Virus record (IMG/VR): IMGVR_UViG_3300025006_000001
Source: a virus
Length of the DNA: 64,000 nt
Reading direction: 5' to 3' (one strand)
Numbering within the stretch: the first letter of the stretch is position 1; each line of letters begins with the position of its first letter. The position numbers were made by a program, and so were the translations under genes. Shown here in pieces: positions 6,825 through 59,007 of the stretch. The notes under the pieces were generated by a model. That model searched no databases. It saw only the letters and a list, made by a program, of their open reading frames with translations, and was not told the DNA's origin.

Positions 6825-7102
6825 TAAAAAAGGGCACTGTGTCTATATAAAGGATATCCAGCATCGAGCCCTCTCCCTGTAGTAGACCAAGCTATTTTAC
6901 GTAAATAATAAACATTCTCACTTAAGTCATAAAAAAAACTATGATGCCTGGGCTGACCTTTTTTTAGTCTAAAATTCAGAGAATAGAATCTATTGTCTGA
7001 TTCTTTACCAAAAGCATCTAATTTAAAATAAGGCAAAGTTCTGATTAAGTATTGTAAATAAGGTAAAAGTTCTTCATGAGGAATTCTACAAGGAATTAAC
7101 AT
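6824..7102 (-). CDS. Hypothetical small protein (first gene of the array)
   Basis: ORF track (92 aa). Confidence 0.5.
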   Translation of the reverse strand: MLIPCRIPHEELLPYLQYLIRTLPYFKLDAFGKESDNRFYSLNFRLKKGQPRHHSFFYDLSENVYYLRKIAWSTTGRGLDAGYPLYRHSALF

Positions 7103-7116
7103 TCAATCTCCCGATA

Positions 7117-7153
7117 AAGAGAAAGGGGCAGCTGTTAACTACCCCTTTCTCTT
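7117..7153 (-). terminator. 12-bp hairpin between transcription units, with GTTAAC in the loop
   Basis: AAGAGAAAGGGG - cagctGTTAACta - CCCCTTTCTCTT. The U-tract is weak, so it may be a terminator, a stabiliser or an operator. Confidence 0.4.
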
Positions 7154-7158
7154 AGAAC

Positions 7159-8577
7159 TTAAGCTGCTTCTTTTGCTTTAGCCTCTTCAGCAGCCTTTAC
7201 TCGAGCTTGATAGGCTTCTTCTCGAGCATCTTTCTTTTCTTTCCAGACCTTATATCCCGGATCCAATTCCTTCGGTTCAGGAGCGGGATTGTAACAAGCC
7301 CAGACTTCTTCGTAAAGCTTACGAGAAATTTCCGAAGGAATATTAGGATCTCCATTGTGACGCCCACGATGCTGACGTTCACGGAAGGGATAACTATTTC
7401 CGTCCCGACGAATTTCAAGACAAGAATTAATTACAGTTCCATTTTCTTTCCAGAAAGAAATTAGCTTCTGATTCTGTTGGAAATCATAGGTTCCGATACA
7501 ATGGCCTTGAATTCGACCCCACATACGAAGATCAGGTTTACTCACCGGCAATTTGATAGTATATCCGTCAACTTCAGTTCCGTTAAGACGTTTTTCATCC
7601 TCAGTCCAAGTATAAGGCTTAGACTCAAGCTTAGTTTGCTCGTCTACTACCAAGTTAGAGATTGCGTGGTGATAAGCCACGAAATTTTCCACCTTAGGCA
7701 AGACAGCATCCTTATTCAGTTCAAGAAGCTGGGTTTGTAGCTTATCAATATCATTAACTGCTGCATAAAATTCACCAACCTTATTAGTGCTAAGTGCATT
7801 TTCACAGTCAAGACAGAATCGGCGGAAATTATCTTTGTTAACAAACTTCAACTTGGTGAAATCGCCATTAGCGCCTTTATGTTCGGTGATTTTAACCAAA
7901 GTATCGAAGTAGTTCAACATGAAGTTGATATCAACTTCAGCCTTAAGGAAGAACTCAAACAATTTACACAGCTTGATAAGCTTATCAATATCCTTCGCTT
8001 GTTCGCGAATAAGCGCCTTAAGACGAGGAGATTTAATATTGTAATTGTCAAAGAATTCGGTCATATTTTCAAAACGAAGTTCTTCATATAGAGAGAAATT
8101 TTCGTAAGGAACATTTTTCTTGAATTCAAAATCCTTCAATACGGGGTTAATGTTGTCATGAAGATCAGCCCAAGTAACCTTATTAAGCTTCATGAAAATT
8201 TCATTGAAGATGGAGGTATTAAGCATCCATTCCTTCATCTTTGCGTAAGTATTATCCTGGTAAGTATCAGTGCCCTGGTTTTCGTAGCACTTTACTTTTC
8301 CTTTTTCCCAAATAAACTTAACTTTGATTTCTTCGTTAGTCCCCATGTGCATAGTAATATTGGTTCGCTTAGTGCGAAGACGTTCAATAAACATGCGGAT
8401 AATGATTTCTTTACTATCGCCATGCATAATTTCGAAATAACGAGTAGCTGCGTTAGGATTTTTCTCGGGAAGATAATTCATTACCAATCCCATACGTTCC
8501 TTATCTGGGAGCGAGTTATACATGTTGCAAAGTTCTTTAGAGTTCATTAGTTTCTTCCTTTTTTCTTTTTTACCCAA
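7159..8577 (-). CDS. PcfJ-like domain protein with Lys/Ala/Glu-rich C-terminal tail
   Basis: The C-terminal region GRIQGHCIGTYDF...LISFWKENG...CLEIRRDG...RQHRGRHNGDP matches the recalled PcfJ-like pattern (HCxxxY ... T.E ... Q.RG..N). Confidence 0.45.
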   Translation of the reverse strand: MGKKEKRKKLMNSKELCNMYNSLPDKERMGLVMNYLPEKNPNAATRYFEIMHGDSKEIIIRMFIERLRTKRTNITMHMGTNEEIKVKFIWEKGKVKCYENQGTDTYQDNTYAKMKEWMLNTSIFNEIFMKLNKVTWADLHDNINPVLKDFEFKKNVPYENFSLYEELRFENMTEFFDNYNIKSPRLKALIREQAKDIDKLIKLCKLFEFFLKAEVDINFMLNYFDTLVKITEHKGANGDFTKLKFVNKDNFRRFCLDCENALSTNKVGEFYAAVNDIDKLQTQLLELNKDAVLPKVENFVAYHHAISNLVVDEQTKLESKPYTWTEDEKRLNGTEVDGYTIKLPVSKPDLRMWGRIQGHCIGTYDFQQNQKLISFWKENGTVINSCLEIRRDGNSYPFRERQHRGRHNGDPNIPSEISRKLYEEVWACYNPAPEPKELDPGYKVWKEKKDAREEAYQARVKAAEEAKAKEAA

Positions 8578-17732: not shown

Positions 17733-18695
17733 ATGAATAGAGAACACTTTTCTCCTTTTATAGGAGATTTCAATTTTTTTAATACTAGAGTTAATCCCTT
17801 TTTAATAAAAAATACAAAATATTATAACAATACTGAATGTTGGATCTGGGAAGATAATGTTTGTCCTAATGGTTATGGTAAGTTAACTTATAAAAATAAA
17901 ATATATGCATTACATAGATTAGTCTATGTAATTTTTAAAGGTATTCCTCCTGAAGAATTAGTTTTAGACCATTTATGCAGAAATAGATCTTGTTGTAACC
18001 CAGACCACTTAGAACCCGTAACTCAATCAGAAAATGTTCGTAGAGGGGCTATTGGCCAATATTCTATCCACATAAATCATTGTAAAAAAGGTCATGAGTA
18101 TACCGAACAAAATTTAACTCTTCTTCAATACAAAAATAAAGACGGAAAAATAGGATATAAACGCCGATGTAAAGAATGCCTTAGGGTAAATGCTCATAAA
18201 TGTAGAAATAGAAAAGACCAAGCTAATTACCCAGAACTAGAGATTGACATAAATTATGTTCCACCTAGACAAAGAACTAGAGATAATAGTAAATTTCCAT
18301 GTGGGCACGAAAAATCTGAAAGTAATATTTTTGAATTTCAACATCCTTACTACAAACAAGGATTCAGAAATGTGTGTAAGGAATGTCACGAAGAGTCAAT
18401 TGCTAAAGGTGATTTAAGACGAAATTATTTTAAATGTGGCCATTCTAAAACAGAAGATAATCTTTTTAGAATTCAAGATAAGAATGACAATAGAGGTTAT
18501 TTTAATAAGTGTCTTATTTGTCATGACGCTAATTTAAAAGGTAGAGAAAAGAAAGTATGTATTAATGGACATGAATATACGGAAGAAAATACGGTTTTCT
18601 ACAATTTGAAAGATGGAACTAAGAAGAAAGACTGTAAACAGTGTATTTCTGATAGAAGAAATAAAGCTAAACAAAAACAAATTATAGAATCTTAA
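17733..18695 (+). CDS. HNH endonuclease with four C-terminal Cys-GHE repeats
   Basis: LDHLCRNRSCCNPDHLEPVTQSENVRR, then repeats of the type C(K/x)xGHE(Y/K)(T/S)E.N ... CKEC/CLIC/CKQC. Confidence 0.7.
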   Translation: MNREHFSPFIGDFNFFNTRVNPFLIKNTKYYNNTECWIWEDNVCPNGYGKLTYKNKIYALHRLVYVIFKGIPPEELVLDHLCRNRSCCNPDHLEPVTQSENVRRGAIGQYSIHINHCKKGHEYTEQNLTLLQYKNKDGKIGYKRRCKECLRVNAHKCRNRKDQANYPELEIDINYVPPRQRTRDNSKFPCGHEKSESNIFEFQHPYYKQGFRNVCKECHEESIAKGDLRRNYFKCGHSKTEDNLFRIQDKNDNRGYFNKCLICHDANLKGREKKVCINGHEYTEENTVFYNLKDGTKKKDCKQCISDRRNKAKQKQIIES

Positions 18696-40232: not shown

Positions 40233-41204
40233 TTATAAATTTTTCTTTTCTTTAGGATTATAGTTTTTTTTGAAATAAGCATGTTTTCTTAGCTTAACAC
40301 AAGCTTTACATTGAATTTTAGGTAATAATTCTTTATTTTTTATACAAATATCACAAAAAATTCTATTTTCTAATCGTTCTTCAACTAATTTAATAGCAGC
40401 TAAAGCCCTATCTTTTTTTCTAGATAAAGCAAATTCTGAATTATCATAACATAACTTTAATATTTTATAAGCGGTCATGCTATTAACGTCTAAAGACAAA
40501 GCTTGTCCTGTAGGTCTAAAATTTTGGATATGTTTTTCGAATCTTTTTACCAGAATTTCTCTTAAGGTGGTTATAAAAGAAACACTTCCTGTAAAATTTA
40601 CACCTATTTTATATTTTGGGTCATATACACAACCGTCTCCATCAATATATCCTCTTAAAAAATGCCAAAAGTATTCTTCAGTTAAATAATCAGGAAATTT
40701 TAAAACTAAAGATTTTTTAGTTTCAATTCCTAAATTTTTTAAATCTTTAACTAATTCTTTTCCAGGAATATATAGGGTGTGAATATTATAACCTGATTTT
40801 TTGGAATGATAGTCTTCTCTATATCGTATTTCTGAATTAGTTTTTAACTCTTTCTTACAAAATTCTAAAAGTTCTAAGTCTACCGATGTAAAGAAAATTC
40901 CACAACCTCTGGCCATAACAAATCCGTCGGAAGCCATATATCCCAATACCCACGCCATGGAAGGTGACCATTTTTTAAAATAATTTTCGTCACTATATAA
41001 GTATTCCTCAGCTCCTGAACCGGAGGCTCTTATTTTTATATTATAATCTTTTAAGCAACGTAAAACCACCCATTTACTACAAAATAAAAGTTTAGCAATT
41101 TTTCTAGAAGAAAACTTTTTAATTACGTATAAATCATAAAGATTTTCCCTATCTAAAATTATTCTAGGAGGGCCTGCTTTAGAGGGTTCGGCAATTAAGC
41201 TCAT
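40233..41204 (-). CDS. Free-standing LAGLIDADG homing endonuclease
   Basis: Two LAGLIDADG motifs: VLGYMASDGFV and FLRGYIDGDGCV. N-terminal HTH-like region. Inserted between the primase and nuclease genes. Confidence 0.7.
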   Translation of the reverse strand: MSLIAEPSKAGPPRIILDRENLYDLYVIKKFSSRKIAKLLFCSKWVVLRCLKDYNIKIRASGSGAEEYLYSDENYFKKWSPSMAWVLGYMASDGFVMARGCGIFFTSVDLELLEFCKKELKTNSEIRYREDYHSKKSGYNIHTLYIPGKELVKDLKNLGIETKKSLVLKFPDYLTEEYFWHFLRGYIDGDGCVYDPKYKIGVNFTGSVSFITTLREILVKRFEKHIQNFRPTGQALSLDVNSMTAYKILKLCYDNSEFALSRKKDRALAAIKLVEERLENRIFCDICIKNKELLPKIQCKACVKLRKHAYFKKNYNPKEKKNL

Positions 41205-42433: not shown

Positions 42434-44980
42434 TTAGCTAGTTAAGGATTCTATACCCTCTAATGTTTTACTTAACTCACCAATTACTTTGTCTACAGGG
42501 TCTTTAATTTGAAAGCTAGATTGGCGATTAAAATTGTTTCTCATAGCTACTTCAGTTCCGTCTTCATTTGTGGGCGGTCCTGAATTTGTTGTAGTAGAAA
42601 CTCCTAAAACATCTGAATATACAGGATCTTCCTTAATAACTTGTTTCTCCTTATAGAAAACAAATGCAATTTCATAATTCGTTTTAGCTCGTCTAGCTTT
42701 AAGACAACTAAGACGAAATTTACTAGCAGGTCTAGCTTTCTTTTCGTCTTCATTTTGAGAAACACCAAACACCAAATCAGGAGCGTTAAATCGACTCTTA
42801 GCGCCCTGTGCCATGTGAAGTTTTAAAGTGTCCGATTTCATAGCCTCGGTTCCACCTTGAGTAGCAGTTAATCCTAGAATATCTCTAGTCTTAAGAACTG
42901 CTTTTACTTCTTGGGCAAGATGTTCCGCAGCAATCCAGAATTCACCGGCTCCTGATTCTGGAAGCATGCATTCTAAATAATCTAAAACTAAAACATCAAT
43001 TTTACCACATTTATCTTCAGGTTTACCAGCCTTTTTATCTAAATCATAAAGATAAATTTCTAATCTATCTAAATATCTTTCAAGTTTGGACTTAGTAAGT
43101 TCTCTTGGAGCAAAATGCTTAATAATAAAATTATTAGTGTAATGTTTGGTATACTTATCAGAAACGTCATCAAAGGCTGCATTAGGATCAAGTTTTTGTG
43201 TGATATCTCTGTCCATAAGACAGCCGACAGTTCTAGCAATTAATTCGCCTTCTACATTGTCCATAGCCACATAAACTACACGATAATCTTGATTTACCAT
43301 ATTTGCAGCCATATTTAACAGAAACGCCGTATTATGAGTTAAAATAAAATCGTCGGTTAGATAACTGCTGGTAGGAGAATCTACCCTGATACATTGCGCT
43401 TGATCTTTTCTAACAAATTCTACTTTGTCTATAATTCTTTTGTAACCATAGTGAGTTCTAGGATTCCAATTTTCAGCTTTTCTAGACAACTTAAAGGGAC
43501 AAATTGGAATATTAAAAAATAATCTGTAATAAGTTTTACCTTCTACAATTTTAGTTTTAATTTCTCCAACATTTCCACCTAAAGATAGGGCTAACTGTTT
43601 TACAGAAGTAACCAGATTTAAAGAAGCAGAGATATAGTCAATTCCACTTTTACTTGCACTTAAATGTCCATCTGTATCCATAAGACCTTGAAGTAAAGCT
43701 TGTCTTTGTTCTAAAGATCCCCAAAGATACTCTTCTGGGATAAATTTAGTGTGAAAATTACAGCCCATTAAATTTAAACGTCTAAGTTCTTCTAAATAAA
43801 CATTTTTAACATGAGGATGTCTACGATCATTTCTTTTAGAAAATTGGTAATCTATATCTGCTTTTGTATTGTGTTTTACCAACTCTATTTGTTCTGGAAT
43901 AAGGGCTCTTAAATTTTCTACCAATTCAGGATCGGCACAAGTAAATCCTACATTATTTCCAGTTATTGAACCGTCACCCAAAATAGCTCCAAGAACATAC
44001 GGATGTATAATGTAAGTTTTTTCAGGTAGGTTGATGGGTTTTACGTTAGGAATTTGCCAATCTTTTCTGCCTTGACCTGAAGTCAATTTATTTTTAAACG
44101 ATTTTAAAGGTAAAACCGTCCATTCATCTTTTTTGGTATTAGAATAATGTCTTACCCACCAAAGATGTTCATCGCAACATTCAGTAGAAGTTCCGTCTGA
44201 AAACGTAACTTTATAAATATCTTTTTCTCCCTGGGGGAATACGCCTTTTACTTTAACAACATTACCGTCCCAATCTATAACCTCAGATCCGACTTTCATA
44301 TCTCCCATAGTTTTCATTCCTTCGGGAGTTACAATTTTAGCATTTAAGGGCTGGGCCTTACCAACACCTGTGCTGGCCATTACTACGAACAATTCACCTT
44401 TACGCAGTCCACCTTGAAGTTGTCTATCCCAAATTTCATAACCAGTTGGAATACAAGCTTCAATATTATACTCTGCTAAAAGATTTTTAGCTTTAGCAAT
44501 TCCTTGATCAGAGAACATATTGAGGCCTAGATCTTCATCGTCTGAAAGAAAATGACGAAGTTTAGACAATCTTCTTTCATAACTTCCAATTTGGTCTAAA
44601 AGATCTTGAGCTTGAAGATTAATTAACTCTTCACTAATCTTAGCAGTTTCTTCTTTAATAAGATAATTACTAATAGAAACACCAGTAAGACTTGTGACAT
44701 ATCTATCATAAATAGAAGTGATAATTTCTTGAACAGCTTCTTTTTCAAAATCATTAAATCGTTCATTCTTAGACATAGAATCATTTAAAATCTTTTGAAA
44801 TTCAGTTTTAGTAGGGATAGTTTTATAGCTATCCAAAACTTTAAACAATTCTTTATAAACAAGATTAAGATATTTGTCTGAGAATTTTAAAGATTCTAAT
44901 CTTTCTTTATGTTGTTTTAGATAATAAGGTTTATTTAGACAATAAGATATAAGGTCTAATTCAAACTCTCTATTATACAT
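42434..44980 (-). CDS. dnaB: DnaB-type replicative helicase precursor containing an intein
   Basis: Walker A STGVGK is interrupted and resumes as TAFLLNMAANM. Walker B VLVLDYLE. The N-terminal domain is DnaB-like. Confidence 0.75.
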   Translation of the reverse strand: MYNREFELDLISYCLNKPYYLKQHKERLESLKFSDKYLNLVYKELFKVLDSYKTIPTKTEFQKILNDSMSKNERFNDFEKEAVQEIITSIYDRYVTSLTGVSISNYLIKEETAKISEELINLQAQDLLDQIGSYERRLSKLRHFLSDDEDLGLNMFSDQGIAKAKNLLAEYNIEACIPTGYEIWDRQLQGGLRKGELFVVMASTGVGKAQPLNAKIVTPEGMKTMGDMKVGSEVIDWDGNVVKVKGVFPQGEKDIYKVTFSDGTSTECCDEHLWWVRHYSNTKKDEWTVLPLKSFKNKLTSGQGRKDWQIPNVKPINLPEKTYIIHPYVLGAILGDGSITGNNVGFTCADPELVENLRALIPEQIELVKHNTKADIDYQFSKRNDRRHPHVKNVYLEELRRLNLMGCNFHTKFIPEEYLWGSLEQRQALLQGLMDTDGHLSASKSGIDYISASLNLVTSVKQLALSLGGNVGEIKTKIVEGKTYYRLFFNIPICPFKLSRKAENWNPRTHYGYKRIIDKVEFVRKDQAQCIRVDSPTSSYLTDDFILTHNTAFLLNMAANMVNQDYRVVYVAMDNVEGELIARTVGCLMDRDITQKLDPNAAFDDVSDKYTKHYTNNFIIKHFAPRELTKSKLERYLDRLEIYLYDLDKKAGKPEDKCGKIDVLVLDYLECMLPESGAGEFWIAAEHLAQEVKAVLKTRDILGLTATQGGTEAMKSDTLKLHMAQGAKSRFNAPDLVFGVSQNEDEKKARPASKFRLSCLKARRAKTNYEIAFVFYKEKQVIKEDPVYSDVLGVSTTTNSGPPTNEDGTEVAMRNNFNRQSSFQIKDPVDKVIGELSKTLEGIESLTS
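43331..44356 (-). mobile_element. Intein (aa 209-550 of the helicase) with LAGLIDADG homing endonuclease; class-3-type features
   Basis: Inserted in the P-loop (GVGK|A...THN|T). Starts with Ala. Block B has DEHLW (Trp two residues after His). Block F has AQCIRVD. Block G has ILTHN, with Thr at +1. LGAILGDGSI and LLQGLMDTDGHL are the LAGLIDADG motifs. Confidence 0.7.
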
Positions 44981-57171: not shown

Positions 57172-57200
57172 TTGACAAGTCGGAACCGATCCTGTATATT
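57172..57200 (+). promoter_or_regulatory. Strong sigma70-like promoter of the RNA gene cluster
   Basis: TTGACA-17 nt-TATATT. Confidence 0.6.
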
Positions 57201-57206
57201 AACGAA

Positions 57207-57588
57207 GTCGACAGCGAACGGCGACTGAAGAGAAAAAGGAAGCTACAAATCGCTGAAGACACCGAATGAAAGTGGAAACACTGAATTTCAAAACTAGTCA
57301 GTCGTCGCTGACTAACACCTGAATTTGAGGAAATTTGTTGACCTTTGAATCAAATTCAGGATTTACGGAAGAGTAATTTAACAAAAATACAAATTAGGTA
57401 ATTAATTCGTTTCAGTATTCGTTGCGAAGTAATTTTAAGAATTCTTGCCGACCGGATTTAGAATTCACTAATTTGGATGGTGAGTGTAAATCTCTCCTCT
57501 TCCGCCAAACTTCTTAGTGTTTAGAGTCAATTTACACTCATTTGAACTGCTTATAATTGATTCATTTTTAACTAGGAAGTCCTGACTT
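57207..57588 (+). ncRNA. Structured non-coding leader (about 380 nt) upstream of the first tRNA
   Basis: No ORF above about 18 codons. Hairpins at 57295-57314 (7 bp), 57318-57360 (11 bp), 57439-57466 (7 bp) and 57481-57540 (11 bp). GC-richer than its surroundings. Confidence 0.45.
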
Positions 57589-57664
57589 GGGAAGGTAGCT
57601 CAGAGACTAGAGCGGCTCCGTGAAAAAGAGCAGGTCGGTGGTTCAATCCCATCCTTTCCCACCA
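57589..57664 (+). tRNA. tRNA-Phe(GAA), encoded CCA, canonical T-loop
   Basis: GGGAAGG-TA-GCTC-AGAGACTA-GAGC-G-GCTCC-GTGAAAA-AGAGC-AGGTC-GGTGG-TTCAATC-CCATC-CTTTCCC-A-CCA. C31:A39 mismatch. No GG in the D-loop. Confidence 0.8.
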
Positions 57665-57687
57665 GAACGTGGTTATTCACTTCAATT

Positions 57688-57715
57688 CTACATAGTGAAT
57701 TTAAAAACTATGTAG
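57688..57715 (+). ncRNA. Spacer hairpin S1 with conserved loop
   Basis: CTACATAG-TGAATTTAAAAA-CTATGTAG. Confidence 0.5.
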
Positions 57716-57721
57716 TTAAGT

Positions 57722-57753
57722 CCTAAGTTAATGAATTTAAAAGTTAACTTAGG
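57722..57753 (+). ncRNA. Spacer hairpin S2 with conserved loop
   Basis: CCTAAGTTAA-TGAATTTAAAAG-TTAACTTAGG. Same loop as S1 but an unrelated stem. Confidence 0.5.
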
Positions 57754-57761
57754 CAATTTAT

Positions 57762-57837
57762 GCCCAAATAGCTCAGTAGTAGAGCACTACATTGAAACCG
57801 TAGGGGTGGCCGTGGGTAGAACCGGCTTTGGGCACCA
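57762..57837 (+). tRNA. tRNA-Phe(GAA)-like, non-canonical T arm
   Basis: GCCCAAA-TA-GCTC-AGTAGTA-GAGC-A-CTACA-TTGAAAC-CGTAG-GGGTG-GCCG-TGGGTAGAAC-CGGC-TTTGGGC-A-CCA. The acceptor and D arm resemble E. coli tRNA-Phe. Confidence 0.6.
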
Positions 57838-57875
57838 ATAAGAATTTAATAGTGTCTACTTCCAAAATACATTCT

Positions 57876-57916
57876 TTCTTTTACGAGAAACGGGGGTTCG
57901 AATCCCTCCGGGCTAA
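57876..57916 (+). other. Orphan tRNA 3' half (anticodon loop to discriminator) with canonical T arm
   Basis: The 10-mer AATACATTCT (57866-57875) is followed by TTCTTTT-ACGAG-AAAC-GGGGG-TTCGAAT-CCCTC-CGGGCTA-A. No matching 5' acceptor strand TAGCCCG lies nearby. Confidence 0.5.
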
Positions 57917-58003
57917 TCAGTTTAGAAATAAACGAAGAGTCTGTGGACGAGAGGCTGAAGTCAAATAATTTGGATAATCTTTAAGTATTAAATTCTTTTA
58001 TAT

Positions 58004-58082
58004 GGAGCGATAGCTCAGTGGTCCAAGAGCGTCGGATTGAAAACCCGAAGGACACTACTTACCGAGGTAGTTTGCTCCACCA
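58004..58082 (+). tRNA. tRNA-Phe(GAA)-like, non-canonical T-loop
   Basis: GGAGCGA-TA-GCTC-AGTGGTCCAA-GAGC-G-TCGGA-TTGAAAA-CCCGA-AGGAC-ACTAC-TTACCGAG-GTAGT-TTGCTCC-A-CCA. Confidence 0.6.
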
Positions 58083-58108
58083 ACAAACCCGTGTTATTAA
58101 ATAATCTA

Positions 58109-58187
58109 CATTCCCACAGAAAGTTACAGGTTCAATTCCTGTCTATATGAAGAAATTCTATAGTAGCTCAATGGATAGAGCATCTGT
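58109..58187 (+). ncRNA. Permuted tRNA-like unit 2: 3' half, short linker, then 5' half
   Basis: 3' half: ACAGA-AAGTT-ACAGG-TTCAATT-CCTGT-CTATATG-A (58116-58150). 5' half: TCTATAG-TA-GCTC-AATGGATA-GAGC-A-TCTGT (58157-58187). TCTGT pairs with ACAGA. The anticodon is ambiguous. Confidence 0.45.
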
Positions 58188-58242
58188 CCCACGATTATTT
58201 AGAAGATTTTAACGGGCTTATTATTTTGAAAAGAGAAAAATT

Positions 58243-58461
58243 ATGACTCTTACCGGAACTTTAGAAAAGAATGACCTTGAAGGTGGACATCTTGTCCTAA
58301 AAACCGAAGAAGGCCAAATGTTTACTTTGGAAGGATTGAATGAAAATCTTCAAGTAGAAGGTTATGAATTAGTTCTAGAAGGTGAACTAGAAGACTCTAT
58401 GTGTTCTGTAGGCATGACAGGACCTGTATTTAATGTCACTACTGCGAGTTATAAGGAGTAA
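58243..58461 (+). CDS. Small conserved-looking protein inside the RNA cluster
   Basis: ORF track. MTLTGTLEKNDLEGGHLVLKTEEGQMFTLEG...VLEGELEDSMCSVGMTGPVFNV. GC-richer than its surroundings. Confidence 0.55.
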   Translation: MTLTGTLEKNDLEGGHLVLKTEEGQMFTLEGLNENLQVEGYELVLEGELEDSMCSVGMTGPVFNVTTASYKE

Positions 58462-58462
58462 A

Positions 58463-58564
58463 ATGAAAACTGTTGTTTGGCTTGGATTGAAAGCAGCTCT
58501 TACTGGAGCTAAAGTTTTTGTGGAAGTATTGCGTTGGGTTGAACGCGTTGTAGTTAACCAATAA
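58463..58564 (+). CDS. Small hydrophobic peptide (33 aa)
   Basis: AAGGAG RBS at 58453-58458. Translates as MKTVVWLGLKAALTGAKVFVEVLRWVERVVVNQ. Confidence 0.4.
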   Translation: MKTVVWLGLKAALTGAKVFVEVLRWVERVVVNQ

Positions 58565-58755
58565 TGCTTCATTGGGCAGTAATATTCTTCATAGTAGCTA
58601 TTGTGCTGGTCAACTTCTTTTGAAATTATTCTTAGCTGTTTTAGTTATTAGTTTAATTTTGAAAATTGTTCAGCAAGTTTAAAAGTTATACAAGGTTTTG
58701 ATCAGACTTTCGGGCAGAGAATAATTTCCTCCTTAAGCGACGATTGAAGCCTCCT

Positions 58756-58832
58756 GGGAGAATAGCTCAGTAGTCAGAGCGCCGAATTGAACCCTCGGAG
58801 GTCAGTGCGTGTAATTCCACTTTCTCCCACCA
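58756..58832 (+). tRNA. tRNA-Phe(GAA)-like, non-canonical T arm
   Basis: GGGAGAA-TA-GCTC-AGTAGTCA-GAGC-G-CCGAA-TTGAACC-CTCGG-AGGTC-AGTG-CGTGTAATTC-CACT-TTCTCCC-A-CCA. Confidence 0.55.
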
Positions 58833-58837
58833 GTTAT

Positions 58838-58913
58838 GGAATCTTAGCTTAGTAATAAAGCATGGGCGTGAAAAACTCAGATCGGCAAATGTGATTGTTG
58901 TCAGATTCCACCA
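58838..58913 (+). tRNA. tRNA-Phe(GAA)-like, non-canonical T-loop
   Basis: GGAATCT-TA-GCTT-AGTAATA-AAGC-A-TGGGC-GTGAAAA-ACTCA-GATC-GGCAA-ATGTGATTG-TTGTC-AGATTCC-A-CCA. Lies 5 nt after the previous tRNA. Confidence 0.55.
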
Positions 58914-59007
58914 TTAAAGAAATTATCTGTGTCCCGAATAATTTTTTAGGTAGGATTTTTTAACAGAAAAGGTTTCTTTTTTATATAGTCATAATACTAG
59001 GGTTATT

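What the first reader, a model, noticed from the sequence alone, without database searches (positions are those of the whole stretch)
58085..58219. Second 3'-half / 5'-half tRNA unit with an independent complementary leader and trailer
A tRNA 3' half lies at 58116-58150: ACAGA-AAGTT-ACAGG-TTCAATT-CCTGT-CTATATG-A, with a canonical T arm. After 6 nt (AGAAAT) comes a 5' half at 58157-58187: TCTATAG-TA-GCTC-AATGGATA-GAGC-A-TCTGT.

The anticodon-stem strands TCTGT and ACAGA are perfectly complementary. The acceptor pairs 5 of 7 positions plus one G:T.

As in the tRNA-Leu unit, the flanks pair with each other but use different sequences. Leader TAAATAATC (58098-58106) pairs with trailer GATTATTTA (58193-58201). 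Leader CCCGT (58088-58092) pairs with trailer ACGGG (58212-58216). In both units exactly 9 nt separate the closing helix from position 39. Two units with the same architecture and different helix sequences amount to covariation evidence for function.

The anticodon cannot be assigned cleanly. CATTCCC precedes the stem, and both halves carry TCCCAC, so a Gly(CCC/UCC)-like or other identity is possible.
Basis: partly seen in the sequence, partly recalled or inferred. Interest (0 to 1): 0.75.

Follow-up and report, generated by a model that had tools for sequence, protein, structure and literature searches.

The report
Phage Y RNA that mimics tRNA
The "back-to-front tRNA" is real, but it is most likely one of three tRNA-shaped small RNAs (Y RNAs) that partner a Ro60 protein encoded about 9.5 kb downstream in the same ~145-kb phage, not a split tRNA gene awaiting splicing.

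Summary
At 58116-58187 a T arm, a closed acceptor-like hairpin and a D arm lie in permuted tRNA order. They are closed by a 5-bp anticodon-like stem, a 9-10-bp basal helix and a 5-bp outer helix.

The "permuted tRNA gene" reading is not supported. There is no anticodon loop and no bulge-helix-bulge splice motif.

This layout is that of bacterial and phage YrlA-type Y RNAs, described in the literature as resembling circularly permuted tRNAs with closed acceptor stems.
- Rfam's YrlA model hits this unit and its sister at 59851-59954, both below threshold.
- The window is part of a ~145-kb phage contig with a Ro60 homolog on the same strand, just past the window end.
- A covariance model built only from units beside Ro60 in other phages picks these two units as the top window hits (E about 1e-6).
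- A UAC(A)UUC motif directly after the basal helix, and the 15:48 tertiary pair, are shared across the family.
- A motif-based DNA scan blind to Ro60 returned 120 viral loci, 35 of them carrying Ro60.

It fails strict YrlA criteria: score 29 against 69, no GNCGAA motif, and it lies more than 4 kb from Ro60. I call it a new variant of a known kind, of moderate interest.

The parts
58088..58216 (+). Whole unit U1: predicted Y RNA-like small RNA, from outer helix to outer helix
   Evidence: Fold z = -2.9. Rfam YrlA 29 bits, E 0.004, at 58103-58211. Model R1 29.9 bits, E 9e-7, at 58116-58187.
58088..58092 (+). Outer helix, 5' strand CCCGT; pairs with ACGGG at 58212-58216
   Evidence: Sequence; present in the minimum-free-energy and centroid folds.
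58097..58106 (+). Basal helix, 5' strand TTAAATAATC; pairs with GATTATTTAG at 58193-58202 (9 Watson-Crick pairs + 1 U:G)
   Evidence: The equivalent helix has a different sequence in each related unit.
58107..58113 (+). Conserved single-stranded motif UACAUUC directly after the basal helix (CUAC at 58106-58109 fits YrlA's conserved YUAY); candidate protein-contact site
   Evidence: The same 7-mer lies 19-33 nt upstream of the T-arm stem in all three non-tRNA T arms of the window. UAC(A/U)U follows the basal helix in 10 or more units beside Ro60 in other phages. It clusters next to Ro60. The consensus is GGUUACUUC.
58116..58120 (+). Anticodon-stem-like helix, 5'-proximal strand ACAGA; pairs with TCTGT at 58183-58187 and closes the four-way junction
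   Evidence: Unit L116a has the same geometry with a compensatory change (ACCGA/TCGGT).
58121..58125 (+). Variable-loop equivalent AAGTT; U at 58125 is position 48
   Evidence: The A15:U48 Levitt pair covaries with G15:C48 across the family.
58126..58142 (+). T arm ACAGG-TTCAATT-CCTGT
58143..58163 (+). Closed acceptor-like hairpin: CTATATG / loop AAGAAAT / TCTATAG, or 8 bp with a bulge and a GAAA tetraloop
58164..58182 (+). U8-A9, D arm GCTC-AATGGATA-GAGC (with GG), then N26
59835..59949 (+). Sister unit U2: basal GATAAC/GTTATC, TACATTC at 59843, stem ATTAG(T)/(G)CTAGT, long V region, T arm, 7-bp closed acceptor, Leu-type D arm
   Evidence: Rfam YrlA 26.6 bits. R1 31.8 bits, E 2e-7..
57840..57997 (+). 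Third, more divergent unit U0: 12-bp basal helix, TACATTC at 57868, T arm at 57892-57908, long GAAA-capped acceptor-like hairpin, D-like hairpin
   Evidence: R1 only 13.2 bits, E 0.29.
57172..57200 (+). Sigma-70-like promoter (TTGACA-17-TATATT, 11 of 12) upstream of the whole tRNA-like/Y-like array; consensus match only
   Evidence: No convincing + strand terminator-like site between it and U1.

Best explanation
U1 (58088-58216, + strand) encodes a Y RNA-like small RNA of the YrlA type. It is one of three paralogs in this phage, with U2 at 59835-59949 and U0 at 57840-57997.

**How it probably works.**
- The RNA is transcribed with the surrounding tRNA-like array. This is inferred from the single strong promoter-like site at 57172.
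- It folds into an L-shaped tRNA mimic. The acceptor end is a closed hairpin, and the anticodon stem continues through a pyrimidine-rich internal loop into a basal helix formed by the RNA's two ends. This is shown at the level of sequence, covariation and model score.
- The stem and internal-loop module, including the conserved UACAUUC, would bind the phage's own Ro60 ring protein. The tRNA-like elbow would recruit a second factor, as YrlA and Yrn1 tether Ro60 to host PNPase in bacteria and in Thermus phage phiLo. This would redirect RNA decay or quality control during infection. It is inferred from the family; nothing here shows binding.
- A sub-population might be opened by RNase P and receive CCA, as M. 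smegmatis YrlA is. U1's acceptor-like stem has seven positions, though only six of them pair. This is speculative.

No joining of halves is needed, and no decoding tRNA is produced.
For: 1. **Architecture.** V loop, T arm, closed acceptor, D arm and closing stem match YrlA. Rfam RF02553 aligns end to end to U1 (29 bits, E 0.004) and U2 (26.6 bits, E 0.02). The published description is in PMC4201824 and 10.1101/312249.
2. **Ro60 in the same phage.** The window is identical to ~145-kb phage contigs. These encode a 526-aa Ro60 homolog on the same strand at window-equivalent 67748-69328. It matches Pfam vWA_Ro60 at 57.5 bits. Its best PDB hits are Thermus phage phiLo Ro60 (E 7e-10), then Xenopus and human Ro60.
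3. **No better candidate nearby.** None exists between window-equivalent 52.5 and 72.8 kb.
4. **Syntenic relative.** In L107 (PolA-UDG, SNF2, Ro60 42% identical) the equivalent unit lies 575 nt upstream of Ro60 and scores 45.7 bits, E 4e-7, on YrlA.
5. **Enrichment beside Ro60.** T/acceptor/D units occur on the Ro60 strand in most of the 14 Ro60 loci scanned. Shuffled sequence gave 9 hits in 1.57 Mb searched on both strands.
6. **Leave-out test.** Model R1 was built only from 10 such units in other phages. It ranks U2 (E 2e-7) and U1 (E 9e-7) first in the window and scores no ordinary tRNA comparably.
7. **Shared details that my search did not impose.** The basal helix ends exactly at UAC(A/U)U. 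The Levitt pair covaries: A15:U48 in 9 units and G15:C48 in 3. L116a has a compensatory change in the inner stem.
8. **Reverse tests blind to Ro60.** The TACATTC + T-arm pattern found L089/L090, which carry Ro60 0.8 kb away. The TTACWT...T-loop...TRG pattern gave 120 loci, 35 with Ro60 in the short flanks held. Of 31 full units, 23 lie in Ro60 loci. By comparison, 2 of the 98 loci fetched with the two earlier DNA patterns carry Ro60; those two are L089/L090, whose pattern included TACATTC.
Against: - The Rfam YrlA score is far below gathering (29 against 69).
- The GNCGAAN0-1G Rsr-binding motif is absent from all three units.
- The units lie 7.8-9.9 kb from Ro60, not within the 4 kb used to define YrlA.
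- The closest Ro60 relative (L120, 53% identical) shows no unit in the 6.7 kb held upstream, so linkage is loose in this sub-lineage.
- Model R1 also hits junctions of tandem tRNA genes in other loci, so its specificity rests on the absence of flanking tRNA parts here.
- The pseudo-alignment behind R1 and the pair counts was assembled by choosing complementary segments, which inflates the paired fraction.
- No expression, end-mapping or binding data exist.
Confidence: 0.78

Rival explanations
1. U1 is a genuine circularly permuted tRNA gene. The precursor would be circularised or ligated at the leader/trailer junction and opened at the acceptor, giving a decoding tRNA.
For: The 3'-half/5'-half order, canonical T and D arms and a seven-position acceptor stem (six positions paired) are present. 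The rotated sequence is called a tRNA by ARAGORN. The unit sits inside a tRNA-like gene array.
Against: - No 7-nt anticodon loop is definable. Overlapping the two TCCCAC copies gives only a 3-nt loop.
- The junction is a 9 x 5-nt G-free internal loop followed by a 9-10-bp helix, not a bulge-helix-bulge motif (sequence).
- From established knowledge, bacteria and their phages lack the splicing endonuclease that processes such genes.
- U2's acceptor is closed by only 4 nt.
- The family co-occurs with Ro60, and many members lack any inner stem.
Confidence: 0.03
2. U1 is a tRNA-shaped RNA that works independently of Ro60. It could be a decoy or sponge for host tRNA-binding enzymes or tRNA-targeting defence nucleases, or a stabilising or processing element of the tRNA-like array.
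For: - It is embedded among tRNA-like genes, 9.5 kb from Ro60.
- Closed-acceptor tRNA-like units also occur in phage tRNA arrays where no Ro60 is seen in the flanks held: L001, L008, L018, L028 and L035, and L094.
- 8 of the 31 motif-bearing units lie in loci with no Ro60 hit.
Against: - The flanks held are short (1-15 kb), so absence of Ro60 there is weak evidence.
- U1 has no anticodon loop to bait anticodon nucleases.
- The shared UAC(A)UUC motif and basal helix are specifically enriched beside Ro60.
- The phage does encode Ro60.
Confidence: 0.13
3. U1 is a non-functional remnant: decayed tandem tRNA genes, or a recombination scar in a tRNA array.
For: The array contains several degenerate-looking tRNA-like genes. 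U1's acceptor helix is AT-rich with a mismatch.
Against: - Three nested helices pair the flanks exactly.
- T- and D-loop tertiary positions are intact, including A15:U48.
- The same architecture with different helix sequences recurs in three paralogs and in distant phages.
- The sequence is identical in every contig of this phage that was retrieved; the phage's proteins are on record in 37-39 blocks of the collection.
Confidence: 0.05

Closest known systems
YrlA (Y RNA-like A; Rfam RF02553), the tRNA-mimicking Y RNAs bound by bacterial and phage Ro60/Rsr (Chen et al. 2014, PMC4201824; Wang et al. 2018, bioRxiv 10.1101/312249)
   Same: - Order of elements: 5' stem strand, YUAY-type motif, inner stem, V loop, T arm, closed acceptor-like hairpin, D arm, 3' stem strand.
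- Conserved T- and D-loop tertiary positions and the covarying 15:48 pair.
- No anticodon loop and no free CCA.
- Encoded on the same strand as a Ro60 gene in a phage.
- Several paralogs per locus.
   Different: - It scores 29 bits against a gathering score of 69.
- It lacks the GNCGAAN0-1G motif and instead carries UACAUUC (family consensus GGUUAC(A)UUC) directly after the basal helix.
- It lies 9.5 kb from Ro60, not within 4 kb, and inside an array of tRNA-Phe-like genes.
- None of the 10 related phage Ro60 loci tested reaches the Rfam threshold either.
Yrl1/Yrl2 of Thermus phage phiLo with phage Ro60 (PMC12135203)
   Same: A phage-encoded Ro60, which is the best solved-structure match to this phage's protein, together with more than one phage-encoded Y-like RNA made of a 5'-3' stem and an internal loop.
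   Different: The phiLo RNAs lie directly upstream of Ro60, were picked by a CGAA motif in the bulge, and are not described as tRNA-like.
Circularly permuted tRNA genes of Cyanidioschyzon merolae, some green algae and Thermofilum (Soma et al. 2007; cited from memory)
   Same: The 3' half is encoded upstream of the 5' half, with a short linker across the acceptor end and complementary leader and trailer.
   Different: Those genes have a bulge-helix-bulge motif at the junction, are processed by a splicing endonuclease and ligase through a circular intermediate, and yield a complete tRNA with an anticodon loop. None of this is present or available here.
M. smegmatis YrlA processing (PMC4201824, section 8)
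   Same: A seven-position acceptor-like stem in a YrlA-type RNA. In M. smegmatis, RNase P cuts the stem and CCA is added, giving a nicked two-piece tRNA-like RNA still bound to Ro60.
   Different: Whether U1's weak AT-rich stem (5 Watson-Crick pairs, a G:U and a mismatch, or a GAAA-capped alternative) is a substrate is unknown.

Membership tests
YrlA / bacterial-phage Y RNA (RF02553; Chen et al. 2014) | tRNA-like domain with T arm, closed acceptor-like stem-loop and D arm in that order, closed by a stem | tested here: met
YrlA / bacterial-phage Y RNA (RF02553; Chen et al. 2014) | tRNA tertiary positions conserved, with compensatory 15:48 Levitt pair | tested here: met
   U8, A14, G18/G19 and U54-U55-C56-R57-A58 are present. 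A15:U48 occurs in U1, U2 and 7 other units; G15:C48 occurs in 3.
YrlA / bacterial-phage Y RNA (RF02553; Chen et al. 2014) | Conserved YUAY between the basal stem and the tRNA-like domain | tested here: met
   CUAC at 58106-58109; UUAC in most related units. The equivalence with Salmonella nt 22-25 is by position only.
YrlA / bacterial-phage Y RNA (RF02553; Chen et al. 2014) | GNCGAAN0-1G motif near the 5' end (proposed Rsr contact) | tested here: not met
   No GNCGAA in 57840-57997, 58085-58219 or 59825-59965. U2 has the near-match AUCGAAAG.
YrlA / bacterial-phage Y RNA (RF02553; Chen et al. 2014) | Reaches the Rfam gathering score (69 bits) | tested here: not met
   29.0 bits for U1 and 26.6 bits for U2.
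YrlA / bacterial-phage Y RNA (RF02553; Chen et al. 2014) | Encoded within 4 kb of a Ro60/TROVE gene on the same strand | tested here: not met
   Same strand and same phage, but 9.5 kb upstream for U1 and 7.8 kb for U2. Relatives have units 0.1-1.5 kb from Ro60.
YrlA / bacterial-phage Y RNA (RF02553; Chen et al. 2014) | Bound by Ro60/Rsr | not testable with these tools
   Needs RIP, CLIP or EMSA.
Circularly permuted tRNA gene | 3' half upstream of the 5' half, forming a cloverleaf when rotated | tested here: met
   ARAGORN calls all 28 rotated constructs.
Circularly permuted tRNA gene | Bulge-helix-bulge motif at the leader/trailer junction | tested here: not met
   The junction is a 9 x 5-nt loop (UACAUUCCC / CCCAC). 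It has no G, so no 4-bp central helix is possible.
Circularly permuted tRNA gene | A definable 7-nt anticodon loop with U33 and a purine at 37 after joining | tested here: not met
   No junction choice gives a canonical loop. ARAGORN's assigned anticodon changes with the arbitrary filler.
Circularly permuted tRNA gene | Circular intermediate and mature ligated tRNA | not testable with these tools
   Needs junction RT-PCR or tRNA-seq.

The most novel reading that the evidence does not exclude
The three Y-like units may be more than passive Ro60 tethers. After RNase P opening and CCA addition they could become two-piece, chargeable tRNA-like RNAs. Alternatively, the phage Ro60-Y RNA particle could act specifically on the neighbouring family of seven tRNA-Phe(GAA)-like RNAs, six of which have defective T arms. 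Either way this would be a phage-encoded tRNA-centred module for counter-defence or translation control, using a previously undescribed UAC(A)UUC recognition motif.
Probability: 0.1. Interest if true: 0.75.

Novelty: new variant of a known kind. Interest (0 to 1): 0.4.

Why it matters
- **It removes a false lead.** A permuted tRNA gene in a bacteriophage would have been unprecedented. This reading replaces it with a concrete, testable assignment.
- **It widens the known range of phage Ro60/Y RNA systems.** The current Rfam model misses a whole set of Ro60-linked phage Y RNAs. They can be recognised by a basal helix followed directly by (GG)UUAC(A)UUC and then a tRNA-like T/closed-acceptor/D module.
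- **It gives a candidate Ro60-contact motif to mutate.**
- **It links Ro60 RNPs to phage tRNA and tRNA-like arrays.** This may bear on what the still unknown effector bound by the tRNA-like elbow is.

Tried and rejected
- **Searches for relatives that found nothing.** DNA searches of INPHARED phages with the 7.5-kb region and with U1 gave no match. The phage's PolA is 25% identical or less to any deposited phage. The search for related loci with the 72-aa neighbour and with the SNF2 helicase found no relatives in IMG/VR. An exact look-up of the 84-aa ORF at 63493 found nothing.
- **Ro60 inside the window.** None was found among the 30 larger ORFs scanned, which included every ORF of 250 aa or more. 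The gene lies just beyond the window end.
- **A Y RNA directly next to Ro60 in this phage.** The region after the gene holds only a promoter-like site and a terminator.
- **MAFFT alignment of full-length units (A2).** It misaligned the acceptor hairpins. I replaced it with fixed-length segment pseudo-sequences (A3). This has a stated bias, because the helices were chosen by complementarity.
- **UACAUU as a promoter -10 element.** Rejected. The covarying basal-helix 5' strand lies upstream of the motif, so the motif is inside the RNA.
- **TACATTC as a genome-wide enriched word.** It is not enriched (12 matches against 10.6 expected). Only its position upstream of the three T arms is significant.
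- **The TCCCAC direct repeat as an anticodon-loop footprint.** Overlapping the copies gives a 3-nt loop, so this was rejected.
- **Paper searches.** Searches for permuted tRNAs in phages found nothing relevant. The 2020 review PMC10870794 is not held.

Full report
**1. Observation**

The sequence is exactly as described.
- From 58116 to 58187 the + strand reads: ACAGA, AAGTT, T arm ACAGG-TTCAATT-CCTGT, CTATATG, A, AGAAAT, TCTATAG, TA, D arm GCTC-AATGGATA-GAGC, A, TCTGT.
- The two ends pair with each other (ACAGA/TCTGT).
- Outside them, TAAATAATC (58098-58106) pairs with GATTATTTA (58193-58201), and one U:G extends this to 10 bp.
- CCCGT (58088-58092) pairs with ACGGG (58212-58216).
- The 140-nt stretch folds better than 199 of 200 shuffles (z = -2.9).
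- When the halves are rotated and any 6-9-nt filler is inserted, ARAGORN calls a tRNA in all 28 variants.
- No tRNA call overlaps the unit, and the flanks lack the complementary tRNA parts. It is therefore not the junction of two tandem tRNA genes.

**2. Context**

The window is phage DNA of about 31% G+C. It encodes family A DNA polymerase with UDG, an intein-bearing DnaB-like helicase, an SNF2 helicase, an SbcCD-like protein, a RecA-like protein, HNH endonucleases and a tail protein. It has no close relative among deposited phages.

Region 57.5-60.1 kb is an array of tRNA-like genes behind one strong sigma-70-like promoter at 57172-57200.

Two further stretches share U1's plan.
- U0 (57840-57997) is more divergent, with a 12-bp basal helix.
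- In all three, the 7-mer TACATTC lies 19-33 nt upstream of the T-arm stem.

**3. The lead**

With relaxed thresholds, Rfam's YrlA model (Y RNA-like A) aligns end to end to U1 (29 bits, E 0.004) and to U2 (26.6 bits, E 0.02). Both are below the 69-bit gathering score.

YrlA RNAs are the partners of bacterial and phage Ro60 (Rsr).
- Their effector domain is a tRNA mimic with T arm, closed acceptor-like hairpin and D arm in this order. It has no anticodon loop and no free CCA.

**4. The partner protein**

Exact-protein look-ups place the window in a ~145-kb contig. The proteins looked up are on record in 37-39 blocks of the collection, and the retrieved copies are identical to the window over the overlap.

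Just past the window end, at window-equivalent 67748-69328 on the same strand, lies a 526-aa protein.
- It matches Pfam vWA_Ro60 at 57.5 bits against a cut-off of 27.7.
- Its best solved-structure matches are Thermus phage phiLo Ro60 (9KOP/9L5Y, E 7e-10, residues 23-406), followed by Xenopus and human Ro60.
- U1 is 9.5 kb upstream of it and U2 is 7.8 kb upstream.
- Neither Rfam nor my own model finds a better Y-RNA candidate between window-equivalent 52.5 and 72.8 kb.

**5. Comparative evidence**

*Relatives.* Ro60 homologs at 32-53% identity led to related contigs.
- In the syntenic relative L107, a gene-free 1.1 kb directly upstream of Ro60 holds two tRNAs and then two units. The first scores 45.7 bits (E 4e-7) on YrlA.
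- L105 has the same layout.

*Descriptor scan.* I searched for T arm + 7-bp closed hairpin + D arm. Such units occur on the Ro60 strand in most of the 14 Ro60 loci scanned. Shuffled sequence gave 9 hits in 1.57 Mb searched on both strands.

*Shared plan.* In these units the basal helix has a different sequence each time (7-12 bp). It ends within 0-2 nt of a conserved UAC(A/U)U, which lies 19-26 nt before the T arm in most of them. U1 fits this exactly.

*Pair counts.* On a fixed-segment alignment of ten non-window units, 94% of cells pair and 22 of 25 pairs show double changes. The caveat is that I picked the segments by complementarity.

*Features my selection did not impose.*
- The tertiary 15:48 pair covaries: A:U in nine units, including U1 and U2, and G:C in three.
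- U1's inner stem ACAGA/TCTGT has a geometric twin with a compensatory change in L116a, ACCGA/TCGGT.

*Leave-out test.* Covariance model R1 was built from those ten units with no window sequence.
- In the 64-kb window it ranks U2 (31.8 bits, E 2e-7) and U1 (29.9 bits, E 9e-7) first. U0 is weak (E 0.29).
- No ordinary tRNA scores comparably.
- R1 does hit tandem-tRNA junctions elsewhere. This is the false-positive class that the YrlA authors also warned about. The absence of flanking tRNA parts at U1 therefore matters.

*Reverse tests, blind to Ro60.*
- The DNA pattern TACATTC + T arm retrieved L089/L090, which carry a Ro60 homolog 0.8 kb away.
Of these, 35 carry a Ro60 homolog within the short flanks held. 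Of 31 complete motif-bearing units, 23 lie in Ro60 loci.
- By comparison, 2 of the 98 loci fetched with the two earlier DNA patterns carry Ro60; those two are L089/L090, whose pattern included TACATTC.
- The motif also clusters 3-6 times next to Ro60 in L107, L112, L116, L118 and L089. The family consensus is GGUUAC(A)UUC.

**6. Interpretation**

U1 is best read as a Y RNA-like tRNA mimic that partners the phage Ro60.
- Shown here: the fold elements, their covariation, family membership by model score, and genetic linkage of the family and of this phage to Ro60.
- Inferred from the literature: Ro60 binds the stem and internal-loop module, and the tRNA-like elbow recruits an effector such as host PNPase (PMC4201824; PMC12135203).
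- Speculative: RNase P opening and CCA addition, as in M. smegmatis YrlA.

The permuted-tRNA-gene reading fails for two reasons. There is no definable anticodon loop. The junction is a G-free 9 x 5-nt loop that cannot form a bulge-helix-bulge motif.

**7. Membership and novelty**

*YrlA hallmarks met:*
- the domain order;
- the tertiary positions, including the 15:48 covariation;
- the YUAY motif.

*Formal YrlA criteria not met:*
- the Rfam gathering score (29 against 69);
- the GNCGAAN0-1G motif, which is absent;
- the 4-kb distance to Ro60.

Ten other phage Ro60 loci with such units also yield no YrlA call at gathering.

I therefore do not file U1 as an RF02553 member. I call it a new variant of a known kind: a phage Ro60-linked Y RNA subfamily with a different conserved 5' motif, here dispersed in a tRNA-like array. 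Interest is moderate. The surprising interpretation is excluded, but the result extends phage Ro60/Y RNA biology and gives a testable recognition motif.

Noticed in passing
window 57589-60063 (+); also L105 6700-6773 and about 7060-7300: Seven tRNA-like genes all carry a U33-GAA (Phe) anticodon loop. Most show a mismatch at the loop-closing 31-39 pair, and all have an encoded CCA. Only the first (57589-57664) has a canonical T arm and is called by ARAGORN. The other six (57762, 58004, 58756, 58838, 59606, 59987) have non-canonical T loops. A GAA tRNA-like gene with the same anticodon loop lies upstream of Ro60 in the relative L105; the stretch after it (about 7060-7300) looks, by eye only, as if it holds more tRNA-like genes with aberrant T arms. 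Why a Ro60 phage keeps a family of T-arm-defective tRNA-Phe look-alikes is unexplained.
   Followed up: partly
window 57840-57997 (+): Third Y-like unit, U0. It has a 12-bp basal helix (AAGAATTTAATA/TATTAAATTCTT), TACATTC at 57868, a T arm at 57892-57908, a long interrupted GAAA-capped acceptor-like hairpin and a D-like hairpin (GAC-GAGAGGCTGAA-GTC). It scores only weakly on model R1, E 0.29.
   Followed up: partly
L001 350-470, L008 6015-6135, L018 4850-4970, L028 4250-4370, L035 10455-10575 (IMG/VR phage tRNA arrays): These closed-acceptor tRNA-like units keep a full anticodon hairpin with a canonical-looking 7-nt loop (CUGAUAA, CUUAAAA, CUGAAAA). They also have a variable-arm hairpin, an 8-bp basal helix and a CAGCAAAC motif. 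In effect each is a complete cloverleaf permuted at about position 44/45. Rfam does not call them, and no Ro60 is present in the short flanks held. They could be a separate and more novel class.
   Followed up: partly
L028 4478-5073 and L042 1206-1801: A ROOL RNA (350 bits) lies next to one of these closed-acceptor units inside a phage tRNA array that also holds a tmRNA.
   Followed up: no
L099 11421-16807 (window-equivalent 63942-69328): In this phage Ro60 is preceded on the same strand by a HicA-like ORF, a 390-aa AAA ATPase, a 665-aa ClpB-like double-AAA protein and a 131-aa ORF. It is followed by ribonucleotide reductase. A ClpB-like AAA protein also precedes Ro60 in the relatives L120 and L108. 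This may be a functional Ro60 (vWA) and AAA+ pairing.
   Followed up: no
window 42434-44980 (-) and 40233-41204 (-): The DnaB-like helicase carries a LAGLIDADG insert (intein-like). A separate free-standing LAGLIDADG ORF lies next to the primase-like Toprim gene. HNH endonuclease genes lie at 17733-18695 and, inside the tRNA-like array, at 59008-59628.
   Followed up: no
window 57212-57588 (+): About 370 nt of non-coding sequence lie between the strong promoter-like site and the first tRNA. They contain a long hairpin (CCTGAATTTGA...TCAAATTCAGG, around 57319-57363) followed by ATTTACGG, which loosely resembles the family motif. This could be a further small RNA.
   Followed up: no
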